Source of the DNA: a virus
DNA: 39,269 bases
Virus genome (UHGV): UHGV-0135878
Strand: one strand, 5' to 3'
Position 1 is the stretch's first letter, and the number at the start of each line of letters is the position of its first letter. Shown here one piece after another: positions 1 through 36,649 of the stretch. Both the position numbers and the translations under genes were made by a program. The notes beneath the pieces are model-generated. The model saw only the letters and a program-made list of their open reading frames with translations. It ran no database searches and was not told the origin of the DNA.

Positions 1-537
1 ATGCGTCGCGCTAACGATCCGCAACGGCGAGAAAAAATTATCCAGGCCACGCTGGAGGCGGTGAAACTTTACGGAATACATGCTGTTACGCACCGCAAAA
101 TTGCTACCCTTGCCGGGGTACCGTTGGGATCGATGACCTACTATTTTTCAGGAATTGATGAGTTGTTGCTGGAGGCGTTCAGCAGTTTTACTGAGATTAT
201 GTCCCGGCAATATCAGGCATTTTTTAGCGATGTTAGTGATGCTCAAGGCGCATGCCAGGCTATCACCGATATGATCTACAGCTCACAGGTTGCAACGCCG
301 GATAATATGGAGCTGATGTACCAGCTCTACGCGCTGGCTAGCCGAAAACCGCTATTAAAAACGGTAATGCAAAACTGGATGCAGCGCAGTCAGCAAACGC
401 TCGAACAATGGTTTGAACCCGGAACCGCCCGCGCGCTTGATGCGTTTATTGAGGGGATGACGCTGCATTTTGTCACCGACCGTAAGCCGCTATCGCGCGA
501 GGAGATTTTGAGGATGGTTGAGAGGGTTGCAGGGTAG
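1..537 (+). CDS. rcdA: TetR-family transcriptional regulator RcdA (YbjK)
   Basis: 178-aa ORF from ATG at 1 with N-terminal TetR-type HTH; recognised from memory as E. coli YbjK/RcdA, the K-12 neighbour of ybjL. Confidence 0.85.
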
Positions 538-659
538 TAGATAAATTTTAGATAACAAAAAACCCATTTATGTAAACGGGTTAATGAAAACAATAAGTTA
601 GAGTAAAAACAATAAGTTGGGTTGGTGGTCAGTGGTGGTTATTACGGGGTAATGCCAAC

Positions 660-682
660 CGCTGCCGCCACTTTGTCGCCAT
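660..682. repeat. Candidate attL core (cgctgccgccaCtttgtcgccat)
   Basis: 22/23 identical to 36415-36437; abuts the stop codon of the 682-1437 gene; exact crossover not determinable from sequence alone. Confidence 0.45.
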
Positions 683-3095: not shown

Positions 3096-3283
3096 AAAAA
3101 ATGCCCTCCAATAGAGAGCATTTTTACTGTATGTATAACCAGTGTCAATATATGAAATCCTGCGACCATACATCTCACTGAAGCCATAATGAAGTAGGCT
3201 ATTCTTTTTGCTATGTGAGCATGTAACTTTTGCGGTTAACCTGTGGCTCATTTTTATTTTAGGCGCAGATATAAAAGCAAAAG

Positions 3284-3475
3284 TTATCGTGAGTTTTTAG
3301 TACAGATTTTTTTGGATTTACTAATAGTTCCATCATTGCAAACGAATTTGCCATCTGAGGTACAGTGAGAAACACCTCCCTTTTTCCCTGAGCAGGGATA
3401 ATTTCTAGCATAGGTAGCTAGTGGGTTTAATAACAAAGAACATGACAAAACCACAAAAAATACCTTACCAAGCAT
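3284..3475 (-). CDS. Small secreted Cys-rich protein (63 aa, signal peptide, 4 Cys in mature part)
   Basis: ATG at 3475 preceded by strong RBS GGGAGGA; starts 15 nt after the cI stop on the same strand; N-terminal hydrophobic signal-like segment. Confidence 0.5.
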
Positions 3476-3490
3476 AATTTCCTCCCGGTA

Positions 3491-4060
3491 CTATTTAACA
3501 TACTTGACTGTTAAACTTATAATTTTACCAATTATTTCAATGTCTTCTATCTTGCATTCGAAGGCTCTGTTTCCACCCTCGACGAAGATTCTTCCACCGG
3601 GTAAACGAGTAATGTCACGGATCGTTATTTCGCCATCAATACTTATTACCCATTTACCATCACGTATATCATCAAATTCCTTATCACAAATAAATTCAGA
3701 ATTATTATCTGTGATTACAAAAAGATTCTTGAATGCCGACGGTAGAAATTCTCTATCGAAAATATAAAAACCGTCTTCACACAAGGCCCCATCAGATAAT
3801 ACATATTTAGCAACTTCCATAGTATTTGTATTACCTGAAGTTTGCTTTGAACCATGCCCGGTTGTGAGCCAATTAAGCGAGGTGCCTGTTTCAAGGGCGC
3901 ACTGGATTACCCATTCTGCTGGGAATGAGTCACGCATGTAGCGTGTGGCGAGTGTACTTTTAGAGATTCCTAAATGATCGCACAACGCCTGTCGAGTCTT
4001 GAATCCATATGCTTCTACCATGCGCTCTATAGCGCCTCGTCCGCCTTTCTCCAAATTCAT
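3491..4060 (-). CDS. cI: Immunity repressor, 186 CI-like HTH protein
   Basis: 189 aa from ATG at 4060 (RBS GGAG); HTH-containing N-terminus; position and orientation between int and the divergent early operon; size matches 186 CI rather than P2 C. Confidence 0.7.
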   Translation of the reverse strand: MNLEKGGRGAIERMVEAYGFKTRQALCDHLGISKSTLATRYMRDSFPAEWVIQCALETGTSLNWLTTGHGSKQTSGNTNTMEVAKYVLSDGALCEDGFYIFDREFLPSAFKNLFVITDNNSEFICDKEFDDIRDGKWVISIDGEITIRDITRLPGGRIFVEGGNRAFECKIEDIEIIGKIISLTVKYVK

Positions 4061-6240: not shown

Positions 6241-7094
6241 GCACCATCCTGAAATGGGCGGGTAATAAAACCGCCATTATGTCCGAACTGAAAAAATACC
6301 TTCCTGCTGGCCCGCGACTGGTTGAACCTTTCGCGGGTTCTTGTGCTGTGATGATGGCGACGGATTACCCCAGCTATCTGGTTGCGGATATTAATCCTGA
6401 TTTAATCAACCTCTATAAAAAGATTGCCGCTGATTGCGAAGCGTTTATATCTCGTGCCAGAGTTTTATTTGAGGAAGCAAACAGTGAGCTGGCTTATTAC
6501 AACATAAGACAGGAGTTTAATTACTCAACTGAAATTACTGATTTCATGAAGGCGATATATTTCCTGTATCTCAATCGTCACGGTTACCGTGGTTTATGTC
6601 GCTATAACAAGAGCGGGCATTTCAACATTCCCTACGGTAATTATAAAAATCCGTATTTCCCTGAAAAAGAAATTCGCGCATTTGCAGAGAAAGCCCCGCG
6701 GGCAACGTTTATCTGCGCCAGCTTTGATGAAACGCTGGCGATGTTGAAGGCGGGGGATGTGGTGTATTGCGATCCGCCGTATGACGGTACGTTTTCCGGC
6801 TATCACACTGATGGTTTCACTGAAGATGACCAGTATCACCTGGCATCCGTTCTTGAACATCGGTCGTCAGAAGGTCATCCGGTCATTGTTTCTAACAGTG
6901 ACACATCCCTGATTCGTTCGCTGTATCGCAATTTCACTCACCACTACATCAAGGCAAAACGCAGCATCGGCGTGTCGGCTGGCGAGAGTAAATCTGCAAC
7001 AGAAATCATTGCTGTTTCCGGGGCGCGCTGCTGGGTGGGATTTGATCCTTCGCGTGGCGTGGATAGTTCTGCTGTGTACGAGGTGCGTGTATGA
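6237..7094 (+). CDS. DNA adenine methyltransferase (Dam family)
   Basis: 285 aa from ATG at 6237; DPPY catalytic motif ([10 protein letters not shown]) and N-terminal FAGSCAV AdoMet motif. Confidence 0.85.
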
Positions 7095-9505
7095 GTCATG
7101 CCGATATGAGCGACTCTAGCGGCTTTAACGAGGCCGCTGCAGCATTTTCATGGAACGGCCCGAAAAAGGCCATAAACCCTTATCTGGACCCGGCGGAAGT
7201 TGCGCCGGTTTCTGCGCTTTCAAACCTGATCACTCTGTATGCTGCCGATAACGAGCAGGAACAGCTGCGCCGCGAGGAATTGAGTGAACAGGTCTGGGAG
7301 CGTTATTTCTTTAATGAATCCCGTGATCCTGTCCAGCGCGAAATGGAGCAGGATAAGCTCATTAGTCGGGCAAAGCTGGCGCATGAGCAGCAGCGTTTTA
7401 ACCCGGACATGGTCATTCTGGCGGACGTCAGCGCCCAGCCCACCCACATCAGCAAGCCGCTGATGCAACGTATCGAATACTTCAGCAGCCTGGGCAGGCC
7501 AAAGGCTTATTCCCGCTATTTGCGTGAGACGATTAAGCCATGTCTGGAGCGACTGGATTGTGTACGCGACAGTCAGCTATCTACTTCTTTCCGTTTTATG
7601 GCAAGCCATCAAGGGCTGGAGGGCCTGCTGATCCTGCCTGAAATGAGTCAGGATCAGGTGAAACGCCTGTCCACCCTGGTAGCTGCGCATATGAGCATGT
7701 GTCTTGAGGCCGCTTGTGGTGATTTGTATACCAACGATGACGTAAAGCCAGAAGAAATCCGCAAGACATGGGAAAAGGTGGCAGCGGAAACCCTGCGTCT
7801 GGATGTTATCCCGCCTGCGTTTGAGAAACTTCGTCGGAAAAGAAACCGCCGCAAACCTGTGCCCTATGAACTCATACCGGGTTCGCTGGCACGTATGCTT
7901 TGCGCCGACTGGTGGTATCGAAAATTGTGGAAGATGCGTTGCGAATGGCGGGAAGAGCAGTTGCGTGCTGTCTGTCTGGTCAGCAAAAAAGCATCTCCCT
8001 ATGTCAGCTATGAAGCCGTGATGCATAAACGTGAGCAGCGCCGCAAGTCGCTGGAGTTTTTCCGTTCTCATGAACTGGTGAACGAAGACGGAGACACGCT
8101 GGATATGGAAGATGTGGTAAACGCCAGCAGCAGCAACCCGGCACATCGCCGCAATGAGATGATGGCCTGCGTTAAAGGTCTGGAGCTTATCGCGGAAATG
8201 CGCGGTGACTGCGCCGTTTTCTACACCATCACATGTCCGTCACGTTTCCATTCCACGCTCAATAACGGCAGGCCCAACCCGACCTGGACAAATGCGACGG
8301 TAAGACAAAGCAGCGATTATCTGGTCGGCATGTTTGCTGCATTTCGTAAGGCGATGCACAAAACCGGGTTGCGCTGGTATGGCGTACGGGTGGCTGAGCC
8401 GCACCATGACGGTACTGTGCACTGGCATCTCATGTGTTTCATGCGCAAAAAAGACCGCCGCGCCATTACTGCATTGTTGCGTAAGTTTGCCATCCGTGAA
8501 GACCGCGAGGAGCTGGGCAATAACACGGGCCCACGCTTTAAGTCTGAGCTGATAAACCCACGCAAAGGAACGCCGACAAGCTACATCGCAAAATACATCA
8601 GTAAGAACATTGACGGGCGTGGTCTGGCTGGCGAGATCAGCAAGGAAACGGGTAAATCCCTGCGTGATAACGCCGAATACGTTAATGCCTGGGCGTCTCT
8701 GCATCGTGTTCAGCAGTTCCGCTTCTTTGGTATTCCGGGGCGCCAGGCTTACCGTGAACTGCGATTGCTGGCTGGTCAGGCGGCAAGACAACAGGGTGAC
8801 AAAAAAGCAGGTGCGCCGGTACTGGATGATCCGCGTCTTGATGCCATCCTGGCTGCTGCTGATGCTGGTTGTTTTGCCACCTACATCATGAAGCAGGGCG
8901 GCGTACTGGTTCCCCGCAAATATCACCTTATCAGAACAGCTTATGAAATTAACGAAGAGCCGACTGCCTATGGCGATCACGGTATTCGTATTTATGGCAT
9001 CTGGTCACCCATTTCAGAGGGCAAGATCTGCACTCATGCAGTGAAGTGGAAAATGGTTCGTAAGGCCGTTGACGTTCAGGAGGCGGTAGCCGACCAGGGC
9101 GCTTGCGCCCCTTGGACTCGTGGCAATAACTGTCCCCTTGCTGAAAATTTGTACCAACAAGGGAAAGACAAATCAGCTGATGGGGGCTCCAGAACGGACA
9201 TTACCCGCATGGATGACAAGGAATTGCACGATTACCTGCACAGTATGAGCAAAAAAGATCGCCGGGAGCTGGCAGCAAGGTTGCGCTTGGTGAAACCGAA
9301 ACGGCGTAAAGACTACAAACAGCGAATTACAGATCATCAGCATCAGCAGCTCGTCTATGAACTGAAGTCCAGAGGATTTGATGGCAGCGAGAAAGAAGTC
9401 GATTTGCTCCTTCGCGGTGGCAGTATTCCGTCAGGAGCAGGCTTGCGTATCTTCTATCGGAACCAGCGTTTGCGGGAAGATGATAAGTGGCGGAACCTGT
9501 ATTAA
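7091..9505 (+). CDS. A: Replication initiation endonuclease (P2 gpA family, rolling-circle HUH nuclease)
   Basis: 804 aa; HUH-type motif (TVHWHLMCF) and tyrosine motif (YIAKYISK); position after early genes. Confidence 0.85.
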
Positions 9506-9599
9506 TTACGCGGGTTAACAATTCGTGCTCTTAATAATACCAGGCATATCAGGCTGATGAACGTAAAAAAACGTTTTACATCAGTAAGATTATTATATA

Positions 9600-9615
9600 C
9601 TGTAAATATAAACAG
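9600..9615 (+). promoter_or_regulatory. LexA (SOS) box CTGTAAATATAAACAG
   Basis: With flanks taCTGTAAATATAAACAGtg, 17/20 match to the CTGT-N8-ACAG consensus; overlaps a likely -10 about 45 nt upstream of the 9659 start codon. Confidence 0.6.
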
Positions 9616-9658
9616 TGGTTATGTATACAGCATTTCTTGTGGTGTCATAGGAGGAAAG

Positions 9659-9847
9659 ATGCAGGACTATTTTTTGGAGTCTTTGAAGCTCCAGCGCATT
9701 GATTTTTTTCTTAAGCTTGTAGCGGCTAGTGAGTGTAGTGATGAAGAGAAGGGGCTGGCTTTGCAGTGGGTTTCTGAACTAACAGATGAACTCATGGCAA
9801 AAATCAGAACCCACGAATACAACCGCTCAATGGATGTCATCAGTTGA
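9659..9847 (+). CDS. Small SOS-controlled protein (62 aa), possible N-terminal part of a Tum-like antirepressor
   Basis: ATG at 9659 with strong RBS AGGAGGA just downstream of the LexA box; track start 9557 reads through the operator. Confidence 0.45.
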   Translation: MQDYFLESLKLQRIDFFLKLVAASECSDEEKGLALQWVSELTDELMAKIRTHEYNRSMDVIS

Positions 9848-9857
9848 GGTGACTTTT

Positions 9858-10091
9858 ATGCGCATTGAAATAATGATCGATAAAGAGCAGAAGATTAGCC
9901 AGTCTATCCTGGACGCCCTTGAATCCGAGCTTTACCGCAATCTGCGCCCCCTGTATCCCAAAACGGTAATTCGTATCCGCAAAGGTAGCTCTAACGGTGT
10001 GGAACTGACCGGACTGCAACTGGACGAAGAAAGAAAACAAGTGATGAAAATTATGCAGAAGGTGTGGGAAGACGACAGCTGGCTGCATTAA
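9858..10091 (+). CDS. DinI-family protein
   Basis: 77 aa, MRIEIMIDKE...DALESEL...WEDDSWLH resembles DinI; RBS GAGGTGA; ATG at 9858. Confidence 0.7.
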   Translation: MRIEIMIDKEQKISQSILDALESELYRNLRPLYPKTVIRIRKGSSNGVELTGLQLDEERKQVMKIMQKVWEDDSWLH

Positions 10092-10093
10092 GA

Positions 10094-10136
10094 AACGTTG
10101 CTGGCGTCTGAACTTGCTTCTGACGTCAGCAACGTT
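10094..10136. terminator. Stem-loop between convergent genes (15-bp stem with one G-T pair, 13-nt loop)
   Basis: aacgttgctggcgtc ... gacgtcagcaacgtt immediately after the DinI-like stop; no clean T-run, so terminator function is inferred. Confidence 0.4.
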
Positions 10137-10357
10137 GAACAACTAGTTTAGTGGGGCATTAGTCATGGGGTAAAATACAGTAACCATTATTTTCACTTCC
10201 GCTCAGATTTAACCGAACGTTAGTTTTGCTACGTATGATGGGCTGCAAATTACCTTTTGGGATTTGTGATAGATACGAAAATCCTATTAGATGCTTGTTA
10301 GACCGGAAGCGCCACTTCGAACGAAAAGTAATGGCCACTTATGCCGGTTTAAAAGCC

Positions 10358-10888
10358 TTAACCTTGTATAGTTATTTGAATATTTTCTTCATTGACACCA
10401 AAGTATAGGGCTAGCCCTGCTTTTGCCTCCTGAAGTGTTAACGGCTTAACTACATTTTCTTCTTCTTCTTCGTACTCATCACCCGCTTGATCGACAATCG
10501 AATTAGTCGGGGTTAATTTTGGAAGAGCTTTAAATTCCAACTTGTCAGCCTCAATGCCAATGTCTTTGAGGTTGCGATAAGAAACGGGATTCCGATTGCC
10601 ATCCCATTGTCCTGGGATGTCAATTTCAGCATAAGAATTGATGTTTATGATCCAGCGTTTAGGGTTTTCTGGAGCCCTGCTTACTCCCGAGATTCGACCG
10701 ATCATAAAAGCATGATGATGTTTTGCTTCTTGTGATCCCCAGTCCTTTCTCGAATTTTGTACACAAACTAAATATTCGTGCTTAGCTGCATGGCTGGCGT
10801 CAAGTCTCCATGCTTGGCTTCCCCCTGTGTTCAAAATCTCTGTTAAACCACGAGCAGTAAGTACAGTAATACAGTTGGTAGTAGCCAT
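10358..10888 (-). CDS. Hypothetical 176-aa protein at the P2 old/tin position (accessory gene)
   Basis: ATG at 10888; transcribed opposite to the early operon, just left of the cos-like site; acidic EYEEEEE stretch; no motif recognised. Confidence 0.6.
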   Translation of the reverse strand: MATTNCITVLTARGLTEILNTGGSQAWRLDASHAAKHEYLVCVQNSRKDWGSQEAKHHHAFMIGRISGVSRAPENPKRWIININSYAEIDIPGQWDGNRNPVSYRNLKDIGIEADKLEFKALPKLTPTNSIVDQAGDEYEEEEENVVKPLTLQEAKAGLALYFGVNEENIQITIQG

Positions 10889-11205
10889 TGAATTGTGACT
10901 CCGTCTTTTTTAGAGAAATACTATTGATGAATGTAGTTTACGTATTTTTTTATTGAGTAGTCAAGTTAGTATTCTGCTCGTTATTGGCTGTTTTTTGAGT
11001 GTTGTGAGTTAGTACTTTGTGTAGTACCTCTTGGTTTATGAGGGTTAAATCTAAGTTATGACAAAGGGAGGCAGGGGGAACGCGCAGCGCAAGGTGTACA
11101 GGAGGCCATAAGGACTCACTTGAAGTAAGAAAAGATCGATAAAGCAACAATGCATGTCTATGCCGCATGAATTCGCATGATCGTTTGAGGATCGTTTTAG
11201 CTGAG

Positions 11206-11233
11206 GCCCGCTAGGAATGGCGGGCTTTTGTTT
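11206..11233 (+). terminator. Rho-independent-terminator-like hairpin (gcccgc-8nt-gcgggc then TTTTGTTT)
   Basis: 6-bp GC stem and T-run on the + strand about 45 nt before the cos-like motif; no upstream + strand ORF. Confidence 0.35.
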
Positions 11234-11274
11234 ATGTCATGCAAGTGCATGAAAACCACTACATAAAGCGGGCA

Positions 11275-11293
11275 GGCGTGGCGGGGATACGAG
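11275..11293. other. Candidate cos (cohesive end) site, ggcgtggcggggatacgag
   Basis: First 13 nt match the GGCG(A/T)GGCGGGGA cohesive-end motif I remember for P2/186; lies in a GC-rich island within AT-rich DNA between the old/tin position and Q. Confidence 0.45.
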
Positions 11294-11658
11294 CGCGCGC
11301 ACCTTCTAATAATTACAAAGTCATTGAGATATGCAGGGGATATTCTATATTTCATTTAATCGATATACCCAACCGAGCTACTAGATTGATTGTGCAAAGT
11401 TAATCAACTAACTATTAGGTGAAAATATATTCCCAATAGTTATCATTCAGATTTATTTAATTCCTCGTTCGTATCATTTTTTATTTACCAATAAGCTGTG
11501 TGATTTTTATGTTAAATTAACGGCAATAGCATAATATGTTGTGAAAATGTGATGAGATCTACTTGATATTATTTTTATAATGGTGTTAATTGTTAGTCAG
11601 CTAAACGGTGTTACATTTTATTTTCAACGAAATTAAGTTTTTGTCATGGAGAGGCTTT

Positions 11659-12480
11659 ATGAAGGTTAGTTTTGATGTTGTTATTAAAAGTGGTGCTTAT
11701 GATGTTGATATGGATTACGCGCTTAAAACATTAGCTGGTACATCGAATGTAGTTTGCCTTTTGGCAGAAGCGATACTTCGTGGAAGAATTATTGAACGGC
11801 GTACCCATGCAAATGATATCAGAGCAAAGCTTAAACACAGTTTTCCGGGTTCTTATGGTCAAAAATTTGACATCGAGATAAATGACTCGACACTGATTTC
11901 TCGTTTGAATTCTATGGGACGTAGTGTTTTCTCTGAAGTAATGAGTTACTATATTTGTGAAGCGCTATATGTTGAGCATAATGGTTTGACAGATGCAGCA
12001 CAGAAAATCATTGATAGTTTAGTTGCAATAGAGGATGAGCTTACAAAGCGAATTCGTTCCCCACTAAAAGATATGCATAAAGTCACTACAATGAATGGTT
12101 ATAATGTTGAGTTATCTTATCGAAAACCTGGATCACCAGAAAACATTATAACGTTGACACCAGAAACTGAGATTAATATTTCAGATACTGAAATACTACA
12201 GGTTTCCCATGATATATCTGTAATCATAACTCGTTTTAATTCAATGACAGGAAATGGTCGACTTATACTTGAAGGGTATGAAGAACATGGCACTGTAGCA
12301 TTTGGATTTTATGATAATTTAAGATATGTAACAGAAAACCATAAAAGACAAATCACTCAAAACTTGCATCACAATAATGGCCTTCCATCAGATAGATGGC
12401 AATATATGAATTTAACTGTAAGTGATATGGTTCTTCCTAGTGGGGATGTTATTAAATATCTAATTCGTAATATACCTTGA
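11659..12480 (+). CDS. Hypothetical 273-aa soluble protein, first gene of accessory operon
   Basis: ATG at 11659 with RBS GGAGAGG (track start 11608 is upstream in-frame); strongly AT-rich; no motif recognised. Confidence 0.65.
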   Translation: MKVSFDVVIKSGAYDVDMDYALKTLAGTSNVVCLLAEAILRGRIIERRTHANDIRAKLKHSFPGSYGQKFDIEINDSTLISRLNSMGRSVFSEVMSYYICEALYVEHNGLTDAAQKIIDSLVAIEDELTKRIRSPLKDMHKVTTMNGYNVELSYRKPGSPENIITLTPETEINISDTEILQVSHDISVIITRFNSMTGNGRLILEGYEEHGTVAFGFYDNLRYVTENHKRQITQNLHHNNGLPSDRWQYMNLTVSDMVLPSGDVIKYLIRNIP

Positions 12481-12490
12481 TAGAGTTATT

Positions 12491-13186
12491 ATGAAAATTC
12501 ACTCTATTAAAATCTTTGCTGCATTAGTAATTATAATTACGTGGTTGAGTTATTTTGCAAAGTTTGGTGATTGGTTTAACTTCTCGAGTGATACGGCTGT
12601 TTGGGGGCAGTTTGGGGATTTTTTAGGAGGGGTGATTAATCCACTGCTTACATTTATATCTGTTGTTTACTTGATTAACTCTGTAAATCTTCAGCGAGAG
12701 GCGAACGCTAGCCTGATTGCGCTTGAAGAGTTTAAGAAAACTGAGACCAAATTTTATAACATGCTTGAGTCACAACGAAGTGGCTTCGAAAGCTTTAAAA
12801 TTGTAGATAGTGTGGATGGGAAACCTTTAGTTATCAAGGACGGTGACGCGGTTACATATATTGAGGATGTTGTTGTAGAAATGGTAATCCAAGGAAGTAC
12901 AAAAGGAGAAATCTCAAATAAAATAGGTGGAATGGATAAAGCGGATAATATATTTAGTATAGTGAGGCGCTTTCATAATATTATTAAGTTGATTAAAAGG
13001 GAAATTCCGGAAAACTTAAGAAGTGAATATTATGATAGTTTAGTTAATATGACTGAGTATAAGCAAATATGTCTTATATTAATATCAATGGAGCTTTTTG
13101 ATTGGCCTATTTTAAGTAGCATTGATGAAAGTGGTGTGTTTAATATTGAGGCATTAATGGAATATAGAAAAGCATTTAGACCATAA
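12491..13186 (+). CDS. Hypothetical 231-aa membrane protein (two N-terminal TM helices plus ~170-aa soluble domain)
   Basis: ATG 10 nt after upstream stop; hydrophobic segments at about residues 7-26 and 41-62; AT-rich. Confidence 0.65.
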   Translation: MKIHSIKIFAALVIIITWLSYFAKFGDWFNFSSDTAVWGQFGDFLGGVINPLLTFISVVYLINSVNLQREANASLIALEEFKKTETKFYNMLESQRSGFESFKIVDSVDGKPLVIKDGDAVTYIEDVVVEMVIQGSTKGEISNKIGGMDKADNIFSIVRRFHNIIKLIKREIPENLRSEYYDSLVNMTEYKQICLILISMELFDWPILSSIDESGVFNIEALMEYRKAFRP

Positions 13187-13192
13187 CTGAAT

Positions 13193-13220
13193 AAGAAACA
13201 ATGCTTAGGCATTGTTTCTT
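13193..13220. terminator. Perfect 12-bp stem / 4-nt loop hairpin between the accessory operon and portal gene 3' end
   Basis: aagaaacaatgc ttag gcattgtttctt followed by gtgtttat; sits between convergent stops at 13186 and 13231. Confidence 0.5.
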
Positions 13221-13230
13221 GTGTTTATAA

Positions 13231-14259
13231 TCAATCAAGGTTATATTTTTTGAATTGAATAATTTTATCTTCTAGCCATTCATTAACTTCTTTCATCCTT
13301 TTTTGTAATGGTAAAAGTTCATTTCGAACAAAAACATTCGCTGCCTTCTCCACATCCCCAAATCCCCCAACATTATTCGGCATTATCCCCATCATTTGTG
13401 GCGGCACACGATGCGCCGCCATCATGTCGTCCCGGCTCACGTTCTTGATATTCAGGAACTCATCCTTCGCCGCCACTTCTGACAACGGGATAATCTGAAG
13501 CCCGTCCTTTTTACCGTTAGGCGAGTACATAAACAGGTTACGGAAGTTACCAGGACCTTTGGCGCTTTTCATCGCATTGCGGAGGTTGTTCACATCCTCC
13601 TGGTTCTGCGCAGCATCGGTCATGTACATGATGAAGCCTGCATGACTGCCGTTAATGTAATACTTGCGGCGGAACAGCGTGGCGGACTCGTTGAGCAGAG
13701 CTGACGGAATGGCAGAAAGATAACCGGGCAGGCCGTAGATCTCCTGGTTGATGTCCGGTTCCATCAGATGAAAAATGCTGCCTTTCGTGAACTGATACGG
13801 CTGGGTTGTCATACCGTATTGCACAAACCAGTAGGTATCCAGGTCTAACCCGCGTCGGGTGTATTTTGCCAGCGCAGGCTCAAGGGCGATAACTTCACCG
13901 AATCGGTTCGTGCGTTTCTCCAGGTAGGCGTTACCAAATACCAGATAGTCCTGCACAAAACGCGAAAAAGCCTGCTGGCTGAGCAGCGGATGAGGGATAT
14001 AGGTACTGGTCAGAATGTTGCACTTTACTGCAATCGGGGAACTGTGATGCACGGCAGCGCGGAAGGTGCGCGCCAGTCCGTCAAAGCTGACGGGCGGCTC
14101 ATACCAACGGTCCATCTGTACGCATTCCACATAGTCCAGCAGTTCTCGGCGGTCCAGAACAGGAACGGGATCGCCGAAGCTGAATGCTTCGGCTGTAGTC
14201 TGGTTTTTAAGCTGGATCTGTTTCGTCGCCGCAGCGCGGTTCTTCTTACTCTTTCCCAT
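13231..14259 (-). CDS. Q: Portal protein (P2 gpQ family)
   Basis: 342 aa from ATG at 14259 (track 14262 is TTG); size and position match P2 Q; start overlaps P stop. Confidence 0.9.
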   Translation of the reverse strand: MGKSKKNRAAATKQIQLKNQTTAEAFSFGDPVPVLDRRELLDYVECVQMDRWYEPPVSFDGLARTFRAAVHHSSPIAVKCNILTSTYIPHPLLSQQAFSRFVQDYLVFGNAYLEKRTNRFGEVIALEPALAKYTRRGLDLDTYWFVQYGMTTQPYQFTKGSIFHLMEPDINQEIYGLPGYLSAIPSALLNESATLFRRKYYINGSHAGFIMYMTDAAQNQEDVNNLRNAMKSAKGPGNFRNLFMYSPNGKKDGLQIIPLSEVAAKDEFLNIKNVSRDDMMAAHRVPPQMMGIMPNNVGGFGDVEKAANVFVRNELLPLQKRMKEVNEWLEDKIIQFKKYNLD

Positions 14260-21536: not shown

Positions 21537-21975
21537 ACTGCAGAAGGTGGACGACTGGCTGAGTGCTTTGCTGGCGAATCTGGAACCAGCCGCAAGAAGC
21601 CGCATGATGCGCCAGCTGGCGCAGGAACTGCGCCGGACACAGCAGCAGAATATCAGGATGCAGCGCAACCCTGATGGCAGCAGCTATGAACCTCGACGGG
21701 TAACAGCACGCAGTAAAAAGGGGTGCATCAAACGTCAGATGTTTGCAAAGCTGCGCACCACAAAATACCTGAAAACTGCCGCCAACGCCGACTCTGTCAG
21801 TGTGCAGTTTGAAGATAAGGTGCAGCGCATTGCCCGCGTTCACCATTATGGCCTGCGTGATCGAGTTAGATATAAGGGGCCAGAAATACGTTATACAGAG
21901 CGACGTCTATTAGGCTTCTGCACTGAGAGTAACGATGCTATTAGTATAATTTTACTTCGTTATCTAACTAGTTGA
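21529..21975 (+). CDS. S: Tail completion protein (P2 gpS family)
   Basis: 148 aa from GTG at 21529; last ~100 nt become abruptly AT-rich at the boundary with the SIR2 cargo gene. Confidence 0.8.
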   Translation: MAELQKVDDWLSALLANLEPAARSRMMRQLAQELRRTQQQNIRMQRNPDGSSYEPRRVTARSKKGCIKRQMFAKLRTTKYLKTAANADSVSVQFEDKVQRIARVHHYGLRDRVRYKGPEIRYTERRLLGFCTESNDAISIILLRYLTS

Positions 21976-22047
21976 TATGTCTTGTTTTTTGTGGGTTTTT
22001 ATAACATCATATTGGCTCTGTTATAAATAGTATGGAGAGTTTGATTG

Positions 22048-23253
22048 ATGAAAAAAAATAACGATATCAATAAACAAGTAAAATCAGAAACAGAAAATAA
22101 TTCATCTGCAAATATGAATGGAAGTGGCTCGGATGAAATCCTTTCTAAGAGCACCTCTGGTACGGTGGTATGGGGAGATAACAGTTTTGGAAGTATTTCT
22201 AAATATATTAATGAGGTACTCGGTAAGAATTTATATTTAGATATAATTAAATCTCTTGATGCTAAGTTGAAAGCACCAGTTCAAGCTAATAGAACTACTA
22301 TATTAAAGAACCTGAAGGGTAATTTCAAAGAGGAAAATCTTGTGCTTGTATTAGGCGCTGGAATTTCTTTGGATTATAAAATACCTACATGGGATGAATT
22401 ATTAAGGAGGTTGCTTGCTAGAGCGTTACAAGATACTAATGAAAATCAGCAAGTTGTTGCGACATTATTTAATCAGGTGTTCGGGCCAAATGCTTTGATT
22501 GCGGCTAGATATTTAAAGTTACATTTTGAAAGTGCTAACACTCCTCTTGAGAAAGAAATTCAGAAAGTGTTATATCAATTTTATGATAGCACCGAGAGTC
22601 AAACGCTTAAGGCGATAAAGAAATTATGTATTTCTGCGGGGAAGGCTCCGGGGTTAGATTCTGTCATAACATATAATTATGACGACATACTAGAGCAAAC
22701 ATTACAAAACGCAGATGTTGGTATTAAATTTAAGGTTATATATAAAACTGGGCAGCATGCAAAAAAAGATGAGTTGCCAATATATCATGTTCATGGATAT
22801 CTTCCCTTAAATGGTAAGATTGATAGTGATGACAGCCTAGTTTTATCGGATGAAAGTTATCATCGGCAATATATGGATTTATATCACTGGAGTAATATGG
22901 TTCAGTTGAATAAATTCAAAGACAATAATTGTTTGTTTATAGGACATTCCTTTACTGATCCAAATTTAAGACGTCTGCTTGATGCTGCTAAAAAGTTAAG
23001 GGGTAATGATTCTAAACCTCATTACTTAATAAAATGTCGACACTCAAAAGATGATGTTATAAATAAAATTCTAAAAGGTTCACGTCAAGATTTGAATGAC
23101 GGGCTAGTCGACGATATAGACAATGTTGCCCGTTCTTTATTAGATACTGTACATAAATTTGAAGAAATTGATGCTAACTCTTTTGGTGTTAATGTTATAT
23201 GGATTGATAATTTTACTGAAATAGGCCCCATAGTAACTGATTTAACTCAATAA
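22048..23253 (+). CDS. SIR2-like (ThsA-type) NAD-binding domain protein, standalone, 401 aa
   Basis: ATG at 22048 with RBS GGAGAG; SIR2 motifs VLVLGAGISLDYKIPTWDELL, ITYNYDD, IYHVHGY, CLFIGHSFTDPNL; very AT-rich; inserted between S and V. Confidence 0.75.
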   Translation: MKKNNDINKQVKSETENNSSANMNGSGSDEILSKSTSGTVVWGDNSFGSISKYINEVLGKNLYLDIIKSLDAKLKAPVQANRTTILKNLKGNFKEENLVLVLGAGISLDYKIPTWDELLRRLLARALQDTNENQQVVATLFNQVFGPNALIAARYLKLHFESANTPLEKEIQKVLYQFYDSTESQTLKAIKKLCISAGKAPGLDSVITYNYDDILEQTLQNADVGIKFKVIYKTGQHAKKDELPIYHVHGYLPLNGKIDSDDSLVLSDESYHRQYMDLYHWSNMVQLNKFKDNNCLFIGHSFTDPNLRRLLDAAKKLRGNDSKPHYLIKCRHSKDDVINKILKGSRQDLNDGLVDDIDNVARSLLDTVHKFEEIDANSFGVNVIWIDNFTEIGPIVTDLTQ

Positions 23254-23266
23254 ATCTTGTTTTAGT

Positions 23267-23284
23267 TGTGCCGGCAATGGCACA
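23267..23284. promoter_or_regulatory. TGT-N12-ACA dyad, candidate Ogr-type late-activator site for the V operon
   Basis: tgtgccggcaatggcaca inside an 8-bp inverted repeat (23265-23286), about 56 nt upstream of V ATG. Confidence 0.35.
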
Positions 23285-23331
23285 ACTGTCTTAAGTTATT
23301 TTCCTAATAATATTTTTGTAAGTTGTGTGCC

Positions 23332-25759: not shown

Positions 25760-27390
25760 GCACAAAATTTTATACCCTGCTGACGGATATTGGCGCGGCG
25801 AAACTTGCCAGCGCCACCGCGCTCGGTGTGCCGCTAAAAATTACCCATATGGCGGTGGGCGATGGCGGCGGAACATTGCCAACGCCGGACGCAAAGCAGA
25901 CTGCACTGGTAAATGAGAAACGCCGGGCTGCGTTGAATATGCTCTATATCGACCCGCAGAACAGCAGCCAGATTATTGCTGAACAGGTGATCCCTGAAAA
26001 CGAGGGCGGTTGGTGGATACGTGAAGTGGGCCTGTTTGATGAATCAGGTGCATTGATTGCCGTGGGCAACTGCCCGGAAAGCTACAAGCCGCAACTGGCT
26101 GAAGGCAGCGGGCGTACCCAGACCGTGCGCATGGTGCTGATTACCAGCAGCACGGACAATATCACCCTGAAAATCGACCCTGCTGTAGTGCTGGCAACCC
26201 GCAAGTATGTGGATGACAAGGCACTGGAGCTGAAGGTGTACGTGGATGACCTGATGGCAAAACATCTTGCCGCGCCGGACCCGCATTCACAGTATGCACC
26301 CAAAGAAAGTCCAACGTTTACCGGAACCCCCAAAGCGCCAACGCCAGCGGCGGGGAATAATACCACGCAGCTTGCGACCACCGCATTTGTTCAGGCGGCA
26401 CTGACGGCTCTTATTAATGGTGCGCCAGCCACGCTGGACACGCTGAAAGAAATAGCCGTAGCCATTAACAATGATCCGAAATTCAGTACCACCATTAACA
26501 ATGCGCTGGCACTGAAAGCGCCGCTGTCGAGTCCGGCACTCACTGGAACGCCAACAGCCCCCACTGCGGCGCAGTCGGTCAATAATACACAGATTGCCAC
26601 TACGGCTTTTGTGAAATCAGCGATTGCAGGAATAGTGGGTTCTGCACCTGCGGCACTGGATACACTGAACGAACTGGCGGCGGCACTGGGGAATGACCCG
26701 AACTTTGCCACGACAATGCTTAATGCACTGGCAGGTAAACAACCGCTGGACAATACGCTGACTAATTTGAGTGGAAAGGATGTAGCTGGTCTTCTCACAT
26801 ACCTTGGTTTGGGAGAAGGCTCTGCATTACCTGTTGGTGTCCCTGTTCCGTGGCCTTCAGCCACTCCGCCAACAGGCTGGCTGAAATGCAATGGTGCGGC
26901 TTTTTCTGCTGAAGAATACCCGGAACTGGCAAAGGCTTACCCGACAAATAAATTGCCAGATTTACGTGGTGAGTTTATTCGTGGCTGGGATGACGGGCGA
27001 GGGATTGATGAGGGGCGCATACTTCTCAGTTGTCAGAGTTTTGCTTTCCAGGACCATGCGCACGCTCTGCCAACCGGAGTGGGTAATCCGTCAGACCAGA
27101 TGGAAAGCGATATCTATGCGGTTTTCAACGATGTACCAGAAATACCCAGTGCGGCCCTGAGTCCATCGTCGTCAGGAACATCATGGGACGCAACCAGTAG
27201 GGCAGACAAGGTAATCCTTTATCGCAAGGACCTTTCACCAACAGGTAATAACAACGCAATAGCGACCGGATTACCACCATTCAGGACTTACAGGGCATCG
27301 ACCTCAGACGGTGTTACTCATCCGTCCGTGTACGCATCTGAAACCCGTCCGCGCAACATTGCATTTAACTACATCGTGAGGGCTGCATAA
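25756..27390 (+). CDS. H: Tail fibre protein (P2 gpH family), current orientation of variable C-terminus
   Basis: 544 aa; N-terminal constant part; crossover site inside the gene at codons YLGLGE (26800-26817). Confidence 0.9.
   Translation: MSTKFYTLLTDIGAAKLASATALGVPLKITHMAVGDGGGTLPTPDAKQTALVNEKRRAALNMLYIDPQNSSQIIAEQVIPENEGGWWIREVGLFDESGALIAVGNCPESYKPQLAEGSGRTQTVRMVLITSSTDNITLKIDPAVVLATRKYVDDKALELKVYVDDLMAKHLAAPDPHSQYAPKESPTFTGTPKAPTPAAGNNTTQLATTAFVQAALTALINGAPATLDTLKEIAVAINNDPKFSTTINNALALKAPLSSPALTGTPTAPTAAQSVNNTQIATTAFVKSAIAGIVGSAPAALDTLNELAAALGNDPNFATTMLNALAGKQPLDNTLTNLSGKDVAGLLTYLGLGEGSALPVGVPVPWPSATPPTGWLKCNGAAFSAEEYPELAKAYPTNKLPDLRGEFIRGWDDGRGIDEGRILLSCQSFAFQDHAHALPTGVGNPSDQMESDIYAVFNDVPEIPSAALSPSSSGTSWDATSRADKVILYRKDLSPTGNNNAIATGLPPFRTYRASTSDGVTHPSVYASETRPRNIAFNYIVRAA
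26792..26817. other. Invertase crossover site (gix/hix-like, left): TTCTCACATACC TT GGTTTGGGAGAA
   Basis: Two 12-bp half-sites fitting TTnTCnnAAACC around a 2-bp centre; inverted copy at 28478-28503; lies in-frame inside H. Confidence 0.6.
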
Positions 27391-27995
27391 TGGCGAAAGC
27401 AAAATTAAACAGTGCGTTTATTGCCACCGTGGCAGGAGAAATCACTGTGTACAACTACCGGGGCGACACCCGCGAATACATATCCTCATCGGTTGAGTAT
27501 CTGCCTGTGGGGGTGGGTATTCCTGCCAATTCCTGTACCGATGCGCCCGGCACACATAAGGCTGGTTATGCAATCTGCCGTTCTGCAGATTTTAACTCAT
27601 GGGAATATGTGTCAGACCATCGCGGTGAAATTGTCTATGGCATCGAAACGGGGGAATCAAAAGAAATTACTGTGCCGGGGGATTACCCTGAAAATACGAC
27701 CACTTTTGCCCCATTAACGCCATACGATAAATGGGATGGTGAGAAATGGGTAACAGATACCGAGGCACAGCATAGCGCCGCAGTAGATGCAGCAGAAGTA
27801 CAGCGCCAGTCTCTGATTGATGCTGCTATGGCTTCCATCAGTCTGATTCAGCTGAAATTGCAGGCCGGACGTAAACTGACGCAGGCAGAAACAACCCGCC
27901 TTAACGCTGTGCTGGATTACATTGACGCGGTGACGGCAATAGATACCAGCACCGCGCCTGATATTATTTGGCCTGTATTCCCTGAGACTGATTAA
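27390..27995 (+). CDS. G: Tail fibre assembly chaperone (P2 gpG family)
   Basis: 201 aa, TAATG overlap with H; C-terminal DTSTAPDIIWP motif typical of Tfa proteins. Confidence 0.85.
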   Translation: MAKAKLNSAFIATVAGEITVYNYRGDTREYISSSVEYLPVGVGIPANSCTDAPGTHKAGYAICRSADFNSWEYVSDHRGEIVYGIETGESKEITVPGDYPENTTTFAPLTPYDKWDGEKWVTDTEAQHSAAVDAAEVQRQSLIDAAMASISLIQLKLQAGRKLTQAETTRLNAVLDYIDAVTAIDTSTAPDIIWPVFPETD

Positions 27996-28224
27996 CCTCA
28001 ATCAGTATTGGTTCGCCTTTCTCATTAATTGTTAGCTCCATGCCCTGAGGAATTTCTGTCATAGTAAAAAACCAGTTGTCCTCCGGTAATTCAATAGCCC
28101 CGGTCACGTCATGAAGACCGGGGATTACTTCAGTCAAAGTAACTGGATTAAACAGGCGCACAATAAACCCTCCATGAAAAAGCATTTGATGATGGTCTGC
28201 CGTCGTACATCTGGCAGCGGGCAT
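27964..28224 (-). CDS. Small ORF in reverse cassette, possible alternative fibre chaperone (start uncertain; GTG at 28161 has RBS GGAGGG)
   Basis: Follows the alternative fibre cassette on the minus strand; no Tfa signature recognised; overlaps G tail-to-tail by 32 nt. Confidence 0.3.
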   Translation of the reverse strand: MPAARCTTADHHQMLFHGGFIVRLFNPVTLTEVIPGLHDVTGAIELPEDNWFFTMTEIPQGMELTINEKGEPILIEVNQSQGIQAK

Positions 28225-28492
28225 AAAAGCCGGTATTTGTTACCTGATCATCCACGATCATTGAAACGTGAACATTATTAGGTGTGCTCTCGTAATCCGT
28301 TCTTATTCTTTCTGCGATACTGATAAAACGTGAAAGTTTAGGCAGTGCAATTGGGTAAACGACTTTAGCCAGTCCATTATCATTAGATCCACCGGTTCCA
28401 AATACTTCTATTGCACCATCTGACCAGCGTACCCATGCACCATTGGCATTAGCTCCTCGCTGAATGACATATCTGGCTTCTCCCAAACCAAC
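28148..28492 (-). CDS. Promoterless alternative tail-fibre C-terminal cassette (Hv'), expressed only after inversion
   Basis: Minus-strand frame continues from shared VGLGE codons at the right gix site into ~110 codons ending at the 28148 stop; the track Met start at 28531 is outside the segment. Confidence 0.6.
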   Translation of the reverse strand, partial: VGLGEARYVIQRGANANGAWVRWSDGAIEVFGTGGSNDNGLAKVVYPIALPKLSRFISIAERIRTDYESTPNNVHVSMIVDDQVTNTGFYARCQMYDGRPSSNAFSWRVYCAPV

Positions 28493-28503
28493 GTTTATGA
28501 AAA
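28478..28503. other. Invertase crossover site (gix/hix-like, right): TTCTCCCAAACC AA CGTTTATGAAAA
   Basis: Left half-site is the exact reverse complement of the right half of the 26792-26817 site; 55 nt upstream of the invertase ATG. Confidence 0.6.
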
Positions 28504-28558
28504 TGCAGAGATAATGGCTAACTGGCATCATCCCCGGTTTTTATTCAGGGGGATGCTC

Positions 28559-29125
28559 ATGCTTATTGGCTATGTACGCGTGTCAACAAATGACCAGAAC
28601 ACCGATTTGCAACGTAATGCACTGAACTGCGCGGGATGTGAGCGGATTTTTGAGGATAAAATCAGTGGCACTAAGTCCGACAGACCAGGGTTGAAAAAAC
28701 TGCTCAGGACACTATCGGCAGGAGACACGCTGGTTGTCTGGAAGCTGGACAGGTTGGGGCGCAGTATGCGGCATCTTGTTACGCTGATAGAAGAGTTGCG
28801 TCAGCGAGGCGTGAATTTCCGAAGCCTGACTGACAGTATTGATACCAGCACCCCAATGGGCCGTTTCTTTTTTCATGTCATGGGTGCCCTGGCTGAAATG
28901 GAACGCGAACTGATAGTTGAACGTACCAGGGCAGGGCTGGCTGCAGCTCGTGCCAAAGGCAGAGTAGGTGGACGCCGTCCTAAGTTGACCACCGAACAGT
29001 GGGCACAGATTGGGCGTTTACTCGAGGCCGGAGAATCAAGACAGCGTATTGCACTGATTTTTGATGTGGGCGTTTCTACCATTTATAGAAAATTTCCGGC
29101 GAATGAGAACAATGAATCGCCCTGA
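28559..29125 (+). CDS. Serine DNA invertase (Gin/Hin/Pin/Cin family)
   Basis: 189 aa from ATG at 28559; N-terminus MLIGYVRVSTNDQ with catalytic Ser, C-terminal HTH. Confidence 0.9.
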   Translation: MLIGYVRVSTNDQNTDLQRNALNCAGCERIFEDKISGTKSDRPGLKKLLRTLSAGDTLVVWKLDRLGRSMRHLVTLIEELRQRGVNFRSLTDSIDTSTPMGRFFFHVMGALAEMERELIVERTRAGLAAARAKGRVGGRRPKLTTEQWAQIGRLLEAGESRQRIALIFDVGVSTIYRKFPANENNESP

Positions 29126-29173
29126 GTCAGCATTATTTTGATTTTTCCTGTAAGCGGACAAATACCGTTATTT

Positions 29174-36437: not shown

Positions 36438-36500
36438 CGTTAAAAAACAGTGCTTCTAACATCATGATCTTAAACACCATAAATTTCAGGCAACAAAAAA

Positions 36501-36537
36501 CCCATCAACCTTGAACCGAAATGGCGGGGTTGATGGG
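36501..36537 (-). terminator. Rho-independent terminator downstream of ybjL (minus strand)
   Basis: Perfect 10-bp stem cccatcaacc/ggttgatggg with 17-nt loop; on the minus strand it is followed by TTTTTT. Confidence 0.5.
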
Positions 36538-36649
36538 CTCCACAAAATGGGGACATCAAAGAAAAGCAGTGGCACTAATTAAGACTGATGCCCTGCGGAA
36601 AAGTTCTGCGGTTGTGCAAAAAAATTTCATTTTCAGGGCAACTTCAGTT

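What the first reader, a model, noticed from the sequence alone, without database searches (positions are those of the whole stretch)
9600..10091. LexA box upstream of a split Tum-like / DinI-like module
A near-consensus LexA operator lies just upstream of a 62-aa ORF and a 77-aa DinI-family ORF. The two ORFs are in different frames and the ORF track shows them overlapping by 62 nt (9786-9847). Together they span ~144 codons, close to the size I remember for the 186 Tum antirepressor, whose C-terminus is DinI-like. The locus may be a frameshifted tum, a programmed frameshift, or a natural two-gene SOS-induction module for the 186-type CI.
Basis: partly seen in the sequence, partly recalled or inferred. 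Interest (0 to 1): 0.5.

Follow-up and report, generated by a model that had tools for sequence, protein, structure and literature searches.

The report
Known split tum SOS-induction operon
This is the ordinary, already described DNA-damage switch of a Fels-2/DuoHS-type P2-like prophage: a LexA-repressed promoter driving a small antirepressor gene (tumA) followed by a separate DinI-like gene (tumB). It is not a broken or frameshifting version of the phage 186 tum gene.

Summary
The LexA box (9598-9617) and both ORFs are real, but the reported 62-nt overlap is an artefact of longest-ORF calling. The genes are 9659-9847 (62 aa) and 9858-10091 (77 aa, DinI family). Each has its own Shine-Dalgarno sequence, and 10 nt separate them.

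The 62-aa protein shows no pairwise BLAST match to 186 Tum. Profile comparison does link it to the Tum N-terminal half (hhalign 96%, E 3e-9; reciprocal PHROG cross-hits).

The two-gene layout is already known. GenBank annotates it as tumA/tumB in PSP3, and the literature describes it for PSP3 and Fels-2. The window prophage is 95-97% identical to E. coli HS prophage DuoHS, with an identical CI. In DuoHS, published deletion of the 62-aa gene ("tum", ECHS_RS04495), or lexA(Ind-), abolishes mitomycin C induction.

A broken gene or a programmed frameshift is excluded:
- Across 49 other loci the relative frame of the two genes is 0, 1 or 2.
- The A5 run is not conserved.
- ORF1 is under purifying selection (pN/pS 0.12).
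- The module occurs in 1125 of 5426 complete E. coli genomes.

Two minor extras: the operator is a colicin-like pair of overlapping LexA boxes, and a second LexA-boxed promoter precedes int.

Verdict: already known, low interest.

The parts
9575..9580 (+). Putative -35 hexamer TTTACA of the p95-equivalent SOS promoter
   Evidence: Inferred by geometry. It lies 17 nt upstream of TACTGT, the same layout as the annotated p95 of phage 186 (TTCACA-18 nt-TACTGT). It is conserved in Fels-2 and DuoHS. The generic promoter scan did not call it because the -10 is weak.
9598..9603 (+). Putative -10 hexamer TACTGT, forming the first 6 nt of LexA box 1
   Evidence: Identical hexamer and identical overlap with the LexA box as in the annotated 186 p95. 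Inferred, not mapped.
9598..9617 (+). LexA box 1 (TACTGTAAATATAAACAGTG)
   Evidence: PWM score 23.9 bits, the best in the window. A box at the equivalent position occurs in about 45 of 50 related loci.
9613..9632 (+). LexA box 2 (CAGTGGTTATGTATACAGCA), overlapping box 1 by 5 nt with centres 15 bp apart
   Evidence: PWM score 14.3 bits, the third best site in the window. A second box at exactly +15 occurs in 24 of 30 Fels-2-type promoters (Fels-2, DuoHS, the window and 21 of 27 close survey loci, 11.6-20.9 bits). It is absent from 186, PSP3 and the distant groups. The PWM was built from E. coli sites recalled from memory, so scores are approximate.
9650..9655 (+). Shine-Dalgarno GGAGGA of tumA
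   Evidence: Read directly from the sequence; conserved in relatives.
9659..9847 (+). tumA-type antirepressor gene (62 aa, predicted two-helix hairpin)
   Evidence: - PHROG hits: phrog_698 at 3.6e-38, with cross-hits to phrog_8554 and phrog_1993, which the 186 Tum N-terminal half and PSP3 TumA also hit.
- hhalign against the Tum-N/TumA family: probability 96%, E 3.3e-9.
- 98% identical to ECHS_RS04495, the 'tum' gene deleted in DuoHS.
- pN/pS 0.12.
- AlphaFold2 mean pLDDT 88, helices 2-23 and 28-61.
9846..9852 (+). Shine-Dalgarno GAGGTGA of tumB, overlapping the tumA stop codon
   Evidence: Read directly from the sequence. Relatives have GGGGGA or AGGGAA at the same place.
9858..10091 (+). tumB: DinI-like gene (77 aa)
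   Evidence: Pfam DinI PF06183 at E 1.3e-22. 41% identical to 186 Tum residues 71-145. Matches E. coli DinI, PDB 1GHH, at E 3.6e-6. PHROG phrog_189.
10094..10136 (+). Strong hairpin just after tumB (possible operon-end or partial terminator; no T-run)
   Evidence: RNA fold of -29.2 kcal/mol, z = -3.8. It occupies the position of t95a in phage 186. Its function is inferred.
3494..4060 (-). 186-type CI immunity repressor, the presumed target of TumA
   Evidence: Pfam Phage_CI_repr and Phage_CI_C. 100% identical to DuoHS CI, 33% to 186 CI and 41% to Fels-2 CI.

Best explanation
The locus is the SOS (induction) operon of a Fels-2/DuoHS-type P2-like prophage, equivalent to p95-tum of coliphage 186.

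In the lysogen, LexA sits on a double, overlapping operator that covers the -10 region of the promoter and keeps the operon off. DNA damage activates RecA, LexA cleaves itself, and a bicistronic transcript is made.

The first cistron, tumA, encodes a 62-aa two-helix protein homologous to the N-terminal half of 186 Tum. It binds and sequesters the 186-type CI repressor, which derepresses the lytic promoter. The second cistron, tumB, is translated independently from its own ribosome-binding site. It encodes a DinI-like protein that probably modulates RecA filaments and SOS timing and is dispensable for the switch itself.

Shown here:
- the sequence anatomy;
- the homology of both products;
- conservation of the operator and of the split layout;
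- near identity to a prophage in which deleting the tumA gene, or making LexA uncleavable, blocks induction.

Inferred:
- physical LexA occupancy of both boxes;
- TumA-CI binding in this phage;
- the role of TumB.
For: - **Operator.** Searches show a unique high-scoring LexA box plus a conserved second box at +15 bp. Promoter geometry is identical to the annotated 186 p95.
- **TumA homology.** The 186 Tum N-terminal 70 aa hits ORF1's own PHROG family (phrog_698, E 5.9e-6), and ORF1 hits the TumA family (phrog_1993, E 2.2e-3). Both hit phrog_8554. hhalign gives probability 96.1%, E 3.3e-9, aligning residues 2-45 of each.
- **TumB.** DinI Pfam hit and 41% identity to the Tum C-terminal half.
- **Context.** The genes sit immediately after the gpA replicase gene. 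A 186-type CI, an Apl-like gene and CII are present.
- **Prior knowledge.** PSP3's GenBank record annotates tumA ('similar to 5' end of 186 tum; UV induction of prophage') and tumB. PMC3121763 states that Fels-2 and PSP3 have tum split in two, and that the PSP3 upstream gene encodes the antirepressor.
- **Genetics.** In PMC12055606, deletion of ECHS_RS04495 or lexA(Ind-) abolishes mitomycin C induction of DuoHS. ECHS_RS04495 is the 62-aa gene upstream of the DinI-like gene. It is 98% identical to ORF1, and CI is 100% identical. The window prophage is 95-97% identical to DuoHS overall.
- **TumA as the core element.** About half of 49 related loci have LexA box plus tumA with no DinI gene downstream.
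Against: - Pairwise BLASTP finds no similarity between ORF1 and 186 Tum or PSP3 TumA. The homology rests on profiles over about 44 residues.
- No LexA binding, transcript mapping or TumA-CI interaction was measured for this sequence.
- As far as I could read, the DuoHS deletion was not reported with complementation. A polar effect on tumB cannot be formally excluded, although the deletion was described as in-frame.
- The generic promoter scan did not call a promoter here.
- Box 2 has GTG instead of CTG in its left arm and scores only at the level of the weakest genuine E. coli sites.
Confidence: 0.9

Rival explanations
1. The two ORFs are a single tum gene broken by a frameshift mutation or a sequencing indel, for example in the A5 run at 9799-9803. 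The locus would then be a pseudogene or an assembly error.
For: The two ORFs together are about the size of 186 Tum (139 versus 146 codons). In the window the DinI frame happens to stay open for 75 nt upstream of its ATG.
Against: - The same two-gene arrangement is found in 1125 of 5426 complete E. coli genomes.
- It is also in Fels-2, SopEPhi, RE2010, about 45 Klebsiella phages and many other Enterobacterales genomes.
- All 23 close copies of ORF1 are intact at exactly 62 codons, with pN/pS 0.12.
- A search of 1.8 billion representative proteins found no fused protein of about 140 aa in the ORF1 family.
- tumB has its own SD and ATG at the point where DinI homology begins.
Confidence: 0.01
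2. A programmed ribosomal frameshift or transcriptional slippage in the 9786-9847 region fuses ORF1 to the DinI-like ORF. This would yield a 186-Tum-like fusion of about 144 aa alongside the two separate products.
For: In the window and its closest relatives the DinI frame is open from 9786, and an A5 run lies in that region.
Against: - The relative frame of the two genes is 0, 1 or 2 in different loci. The upstream open extension of the DinI frame ranges from 3 to 75 nt, and is only 3 nt in L008/L009, which share the window's frame relation.
- Synonymous changes break the A-run in most relatives (GCG AAA, GCG AAG).
- The alternative frames show no coding constraint (pN/pS 1.3 and 2.2).
- The shift required here is +1, and no known +1 signal (an RF2-type CUU UGA site) is present.
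- A5 is too short for efficient transcriptional slippage (general knowledge).
Confidence: 0.02
3. The DinI-like protein (ORF2), not ORF1, is the inducer. Several database records label the DinI-like gene as the Tum or 'SOS induction modulator' homologue. ORF1 would then be an unrelated small ORF or leader peptide.
For: Only the DinI-like half shows BLAST-level similarity to 186 Tum. Some phage records name it 'SOS induction modulator'.
Against: - The gene deleted as 'tum' in DuoHS is the 62-aa ORF, not the DinI-like gene.
- PSP3's upstream gene is reported to carry the antirepressor activity (PMC3121763).
- Many loci have LexA box plus tumA with no DinI gene or a decayed one.
- In 186 the DinI-only product is annotated as merely modulating induction.
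- ORF1 is under strong purifying selection.
Confidence: 0.04

Closest known systems
E. coli HS prophage DuoHS tum (ECHS_RS04495) plus DinI-like ECHS_RS04500 (Phollow paper, PMC12055606)
   Same: - Essentially the same phage: 95-97% nucleotide identity and the same rcdA-rybB integration site.
- CI is 100% identical, TumA 98% identical, and the double LexA operator is the same.
- Induction was shown to need this gene and cleavable LexA.
   Different: - One amino-acid difference in TumA (T52S).
- Box 2 differs at 3 positions (14.3 versus 17.5 bits).
- The moron regions differ.
Salmonella phage Fels-2 STM2728 plus STM2726.1 (also SopEPhi and RE2010)
   Same: The same LexA double box, a 62-aa TumA (98% identical) and a 77-aa DinI-like gene after gpA. 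The literature describes it as a tum gene split in two.
   Different: Fels-2 CI is only 41% identical to the window CI. Its int directly abuts cI.
Phage PSP3 tumA/tumB
   Same: A LexA box followed by a small antirepressor gene and then a separate DinI-like gene. It is annotated as such in GenBank.
   Different: PSP3 TumA belongs to the 186-like subfamily (phrog_1993) and has no BLAST-level similarity to ORF1. It has a single LexA box. Its two genes are in the same frame, 3 nt apart.
Coliphage 186 Tum (p95-tum SOS operon)
   Same: - A LexA box overlapping a TACTGT -10 hexamer.
- An N-terminal antirepressor module homologous at profile level.
- A C-terminal DinI-like module 41% identical.
- A 186-type CI target.
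- 186 also translates the DinI part separately from an internal GTG with its own SD.
   Different: In 186 the two modules are fused into one 146-aa protein. It has a single LexA box, and orf97 follows in the operon.
Colicin operon operators (two overlapping SOS boxes)
   Same: Two overlapping LexA boxes. In colicin genes these bind two LexA dimers and prevent untimely expression of a lethal function (PMC2994835).
   Different: Different downstream genes. Binding of two dimers at this operator has not been tested.

Membership tests
Tum / TumA antirepressor (N-terminal module of coliphage 186 Tum) | Sequence homology to the N-terminal ~60 residues of 186 Tum / PSP3 TumA | tested here: met
   Met at profile level only. 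hhalign gives probability 96.1%, E 3.3e-9, over residues 2-45, and PHROG cross-hits are reciprocal. The shared motif is C-x6-[LI]AL-x-[LW][IV][AS][ED][IL]. Pairwise BLASTP is negative.
Tum / TumA antirepressor (N-terminal module of coliphage 186 Tum) | Expression from a LexA-controlled promoter | tested here: met
   A high-scoring LexA box overlaps the putative -10 hexamer and is conserved in about 45 of 50 related loci. LexA binding itself was not measured. A lexA(Ind-) host blocks induction of the near-identical DuoHS.
Tum / TumA antirepressor (N-terminal module of coliphage 186 Tum) | Located after replication gene A in a P2/186-like genome that carries a 186-type CI | tested here: met
   gpA at 7091-9505. 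CI carries PF07022 + PF16452, CII carries PF06892, and an Apl/Cox-like gene is present.
Tum / TumA antirepressor (N-terminal module of coliphage 186 Tum) | Binds CI and prevents operator binding; required for SOS induction | not testable with these tools
   Supported indirectly. Deleting the 98%-identical gene in DuoHS abolishes mitomycin C induction. The PSP3 upstream gene is reported to be the antirepressor.
DinI family (PF06183) | Match to the family profile above Pfam's gathering score | tested here: met
   80.4 bits against a 24.2-bit cut-off, covering profile positions 1-63 of 63. Aligns end to end with E. coli DinI, PDB 1GHH, at E 3.6e-6.
DinI family (PF06183) | Binds RecA filaments and modulates SOS | not testable with these tools
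   Inferred from family membership, and from the 186 annotation of the DinI-only product as a modulator of SOS induction.
Programmed frameshift / broken gene | Conserved slippery site, conserved frame relation, and no independent start for the downstream ORF | tested here: not met
   Frame relations 0, 1 and 2 all occur. The gap of 8-15 nt always contains an SD and an ATG. The A-run is not conserved, and the alternative frames are unconstrained.
Colicin-type double (overlapping) LexA operator | Two LexA boxes overlapping by a few bases upstream of one gene | tested here: met
   Boxes at 9598-9617 and 9613-9632. The 15-bp offset is conserved in 24 of 30 Fels-2-type promoters. Occupancy by two LexA dimers was not tested.

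The most novel reading that the evidence does not exclude
The DuoHS/Fels-2-type prophages may run a small SOS regulon of their own, differing from the 186 paradigm in three ways.
1. The tum operator is a colicin-style double LexA site, giving tight repression and late derepression.
2. In the DuoHS subtype, int has its own near-consensus promoter with a LexA box in the spacer (3120-3151, minus strand). Excision capacity and repressor inactivation would then be wired to LexA in parallel.
3. A virtually identical TumA serves CI repressors that are only 41% identical overall but about 68% identical in the N-terminal DNA-binding domain. This suggests TumA targets that domain and could cross-induce heteroimmune prophages.

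None of this is excluded by my evidence, and none of it was tested.
Probability: 0.35. Interest if true: 0.3.

Novelty: already known. Interest (0 to 1): 0.1.

Why it matters
It matters mainly for annotation. The 62-aa gene is labelled 'hypothetical protein' (sometimes 'levan regulatory protein') in more than a thousand complete E. coli genomes and in dozens of phage records, and it has no Pfam family. Yet it is the gene that decides whether these very common P2-like prophages induce after DNA damage. Recognising it as tumA, and the DinI-like neighbour as tumB, removes a false suspicion of a pseudogene or recoding event. No open question is resolved by the finding as stated.

Tried and rejected
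- Pairwise BLASTP of ORF1 against 186 Tum and PSP3 TumA, and of TumA against Tum, gave no hits. Profile methods were needed.
- Pfam has no family for ORF1. No solved structure matches the ORF1 profile.
- phmmer against 1.8 billion representatives found only 66 relatives. Nearly all are stand-alone proteins of about 55-75 aa, and none is a fusion of about 140 aa.
- The search for related loci with the 28-sequence alignment failed because it was too diverse. A 7-sequence alignment worked.
- The first literature search (TumA/TumB/186) returned only noise.
- Bunny, Liu and Roth 2002 (PMC151935), the primary source for the Fels-2 split tum, is not held. I cite it only through PMC3121763.
- The generic promoter scan found no sigma-70 promoter at the tum locus. 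The promoter is assigned by analogy with the annotated 186 p95.
- The downstream ORFs in the loci that lack a DinI gene look like non-coding translations and were not pursued.
- The Rfam scan of the window found only RybB, and nothing in the tum region.

Full report
**Observation**

The sequence shows TACTGTAAATATAAACAGTG at 9598-9617. It is the only site in the window within three mismatches of the 20-nt LexA consensus, and none of 100 shuffles gave such a match. It has a perfect CTGT-N8-ACAG core.

Downstream there are two ORFs.
- ORF1 runs from ATG 9659 to the stop at 9845-9847 and encodes 62 aa. It is preceded by GGAGGA.
- ORF2 encodes a 77-aa protein from ATG 9858 to 10091 and is preceded by GAGGTGA.

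The ORF list shows the second ORF as 9786-10091 only because the tool starts at the first in-frame ATG. DinI homology begins at the Met encoded at 9858, and that start is the one conserved in relatives. The genes are therefore adjacent, separated by 10 nt and in different frames. The reported 62-nt overlap is an artefact.

**What the products are**

ORF2 is a DinI-family protein. It hits PF06183 at 80 bits against a cut-off of 24. It is 41% identical to residues 71-145 of 186 Tum and aligns end to end with E. coli DinI, PDB 1GHH.

ORF1 has no Pfam family and no BLASTP similarity to 186 Tum or PSP3 TumA. A PHROG scan links them nevertheless.
- ORF1 hits phrog_698 (3.6e-38), phrog_8554 (2.4e-8) and phrog_1993 (2.2e-3).
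- The first 70 residues of 186 Tum hit phrog_1993 (1.5e-23), phrog_8554 (3.4e-12) and phrog_698 (5.9e-6).
- PSP3 TumA hits phrog_1993 (2.7e-32).

I compared a 28-sequence alignment of diverse ORF1 relatives with an 18-sequence alignment of Tum-N/TumA relatives. The hhalign probability was 96.1%, E 3.3e-9, aligning residues 2-45 of each.

AlphaFold2 predicts a two-helix hairpin for ORF1, with helices 2-23 and 28-61 and mean pLDDT 88. No solved structure matches the family profile. ORF1 is therefore a TumA-type homologue of the N-terminal half of Tum.

**Context**

The upstream gene is the P2 gpA-type replicase. The immunity region encodes a 186-type CI (PF07022 + PF16452), an Apl/Cox-like protein and a CII (PF06892).

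The window is a complete prophage between rcdA and rybB. It is 95-97% identical to the E. coli HS prophage DuoHS across its shared regions. Its CI is 100% identical to DuoHS CI, and TumA is 98% identical.

**What is already known**

- The annotated 186 record shows p95 with a LexA box overlapping a TACTGT -10 hexamer. It also shows tum with four nested starts, the last a GTG that gives the DinI part alone.
- The PSP3 record annotates two genes. tumA is described as 'similar to 5' end 186 tum; UV induction of prophage', and tumB as 'similar to dinI and 3' end of 186 tum'.
- The Fels-2 record refers its DinI-like gene to PSP3 TumB.
- Lemire et al. [quoted passage not shown] 2002.
- The Phollow paper (PMC12055606) shows that DuoHS is not induced by mitomycin C in a lexA(Ind-) host or after an in-frame deletion of 'tum'. 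Its supplement gives the locus tag ECHS_RS04495.
- In RefSeq, ECHS_RS04495 is the 189-nt 'hypothetical protein' immediately upstream of the DinI-like gene ECHS_RS04500.

ORF1 is similar to Tum, and induction depends on this locus.

**Broken gene or programmed frameshift?**

The 541-nt module occurs in 1125 of 5426 complete E. coli genomes. In every row sampled across the ranking that covered the whole query, it is annotated as two genes. It is also present in 67 phage records.

I fetched 49 loci from other Enterobacterales species and examined them together with the window locus (50 in all).
- Where a DinI gene follows, the gap is 8-15 nt and contains an SD and, in the intact copies, an ATG.
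- The relative frame is 0, 1 or 2 in different loci.
- The stretch of DinI frame open upstream of the ATG ranges from 3 to 75 nt.
- The A5 run becomes GCG AAA or GCG AAG in most relatives.
- All 23 close ORF1 copies are intact at 62 codons.
- pN/pS is 0.12 in the ORF1 frame, against 1.3 and 2.2 in the other two frames.
- No fused protein of about 140 aa appears among ORF1 relatives in 1.8 billion representatives.

Both frameshift readings are rejected.

About half of the loci carry LexA box plus tumA with no DinI gene or a decayed one. This fits TumA as the essential element and TumB as an accessory.

Close relatives of the 186 Tum N-terminal half are also mostly stand-alone proteins of 63-78 aa. 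The fused 186 protein therefore looks like the exception.

**Operator detail**

I built a PWM from 20 E. coli LexA sites recalled from memory, so its scores are approximate. It scores box 1 at 23.9 bits. A second site at 9613-9632 scores 14.3 bits and is the third best in the window.

A second box exactly 15 bp downstream of the first is present in 24 of 30 Fels-2-type promoters (Fels-2, DuoHS, the window and 21 of 27 close survey loci). 186, PSP3 and the more distant TumA groups have a single box.

[quoted passage not shown] By analogy, the double operator would give tight repression. This is inferred.

The promoter is assigned by analogy with 186 p95: TTTACA (9575-9580), a 17-nt spacer, then TACTGT (9598-9603). 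The generic scan did not call it. A stable hairpin at 10094-10136 follows tumB, at the position of t95a in 186.

**Mechanism**

1. RecA activation leads to LexA self-cleavage.
2. The promoter is derepressed and a bicistronic tumA-tumB mRNA is made.
3. TumA sequesters CI. Sequestration is the mechanism described for 186 Tum (PMC7708051; PMC3121763).
4. The lytic promoter fires.
5. TumB probably tunes RecA and SOS.

The steps shown here are the sequence anatomy, the homology and the conservation, together with published genetics in a near-identical phage. LexA occupancy, TumA-CI binding and the TumB role are inferred.

**Verdict**

The overlap and frameshift ideas are wrong. Interest is low.

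Noticed in passing
window 3120-3151 (minus strand); LexA-type box at 3125-3144: A second LexA-type box scores 23.8 bits, as good as the tum box. It sits in the spacer of a near-consensus sigma-70 promoter (TTGACA-17 nt-AAAAAT, or 16 nt-TAAAAT) about 25 nt upstream of the integrase start (ATG at about 3094, SD GGAGGG). Integrase may therefore have its own SOS-controlled promoter, unlike 186, where int follows cI. The identical sequence is in DuoHS (L005 2830-2858). The promoter region is about 94% conserved in Klebsiella phage 4LV2017 and relatives.
   Followed up: partly
window 3284-3475 (minus strand): A 63-aa ORF lies between cI and int. It has a signal-peptide-like N-terminus and several cysteines ([23 protein letters not shown]...). 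It has no Pfam hit, is annotated as hypothetical in DuoHS, and is absent from Fels-2 and 186, where int abuts cI. It is possibly a moron that uncoupled int from the cI transcript.
   Followed up: no
window 1-681 and 36492-36570: The prophage lies between rcdA (99.7% identical to E. coli HS) and the RybB sRNA gene (Rfam, 105 bits). This is the same site as DuoHS. Four regions differ from DuoHS and look like moron or accessory slots: 682-2091, 10090-13318, 21864-23331 and 26220-29141.
   Followed up: partly
loci L010, L020, L022 and about 28 of 50 surveyed loci: Many LexA-box plus tumA units have no DinI-like gene downstream. In a few the DinI gene is truncated or has lost its ORF. The DinI module seems to be gained, lost or decayed independently of tumA.
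   Followed up: partly
proteins P0184-P0301: Close relatives (67-97% identical) of the N-terminal half of 186 Tum are mostly stand-alone proteins of 63-91 aa, some named 'Tum protein'. The fused 146-aa Tum of 186 may be a derived exception. Its internal SD plus GTG start for the DinI part would then be a vestige of a two-gene state.
   Followed up: no
window CI 3494-4060 versus Fels-2 CI (L002 1174-1803): TumA is 98% identical between the window and Fels-2, but the CI repressors are only 41% identical. They are about 68% identical over the first 60 aligned residues (the HTH domain) and about 30% over the rest. This hints that TumA recognises the conserved N-terminal domain and might act across immunity types.
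   Followed up: no
window 11152-11403: A conserved DNA stretch translates as ...HENHYIKRAGVAGIRARA.... It recurs downstream of tumA in several unrelated loci (L026, L039, L049) and matches DuoHS at 88.7% (L004 894-1043). It is probably a conserved non-coding element, possibly cos-proximal. Rfam finds nothing there.
   Followed up: no
window 10358-10888 (minus strand): A 176-aa ORF is convergent with the tum operon. It hits phrog_37247 (unknown function, E 6e-94), has no Pfam hit, and is absent from DuoHS at this position. It occupies the slot where 186 carries orf97.
   Followed up: no
database names for ORF1: The 62-aa TumA homologue is named 'levan regulatory protein' or 'levan regulatory domain protein' in UniRef and in some Klebsiella phage records. 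Nothing found here supports this name, so it appears to be a propagated misannotation.
   Followed up: no
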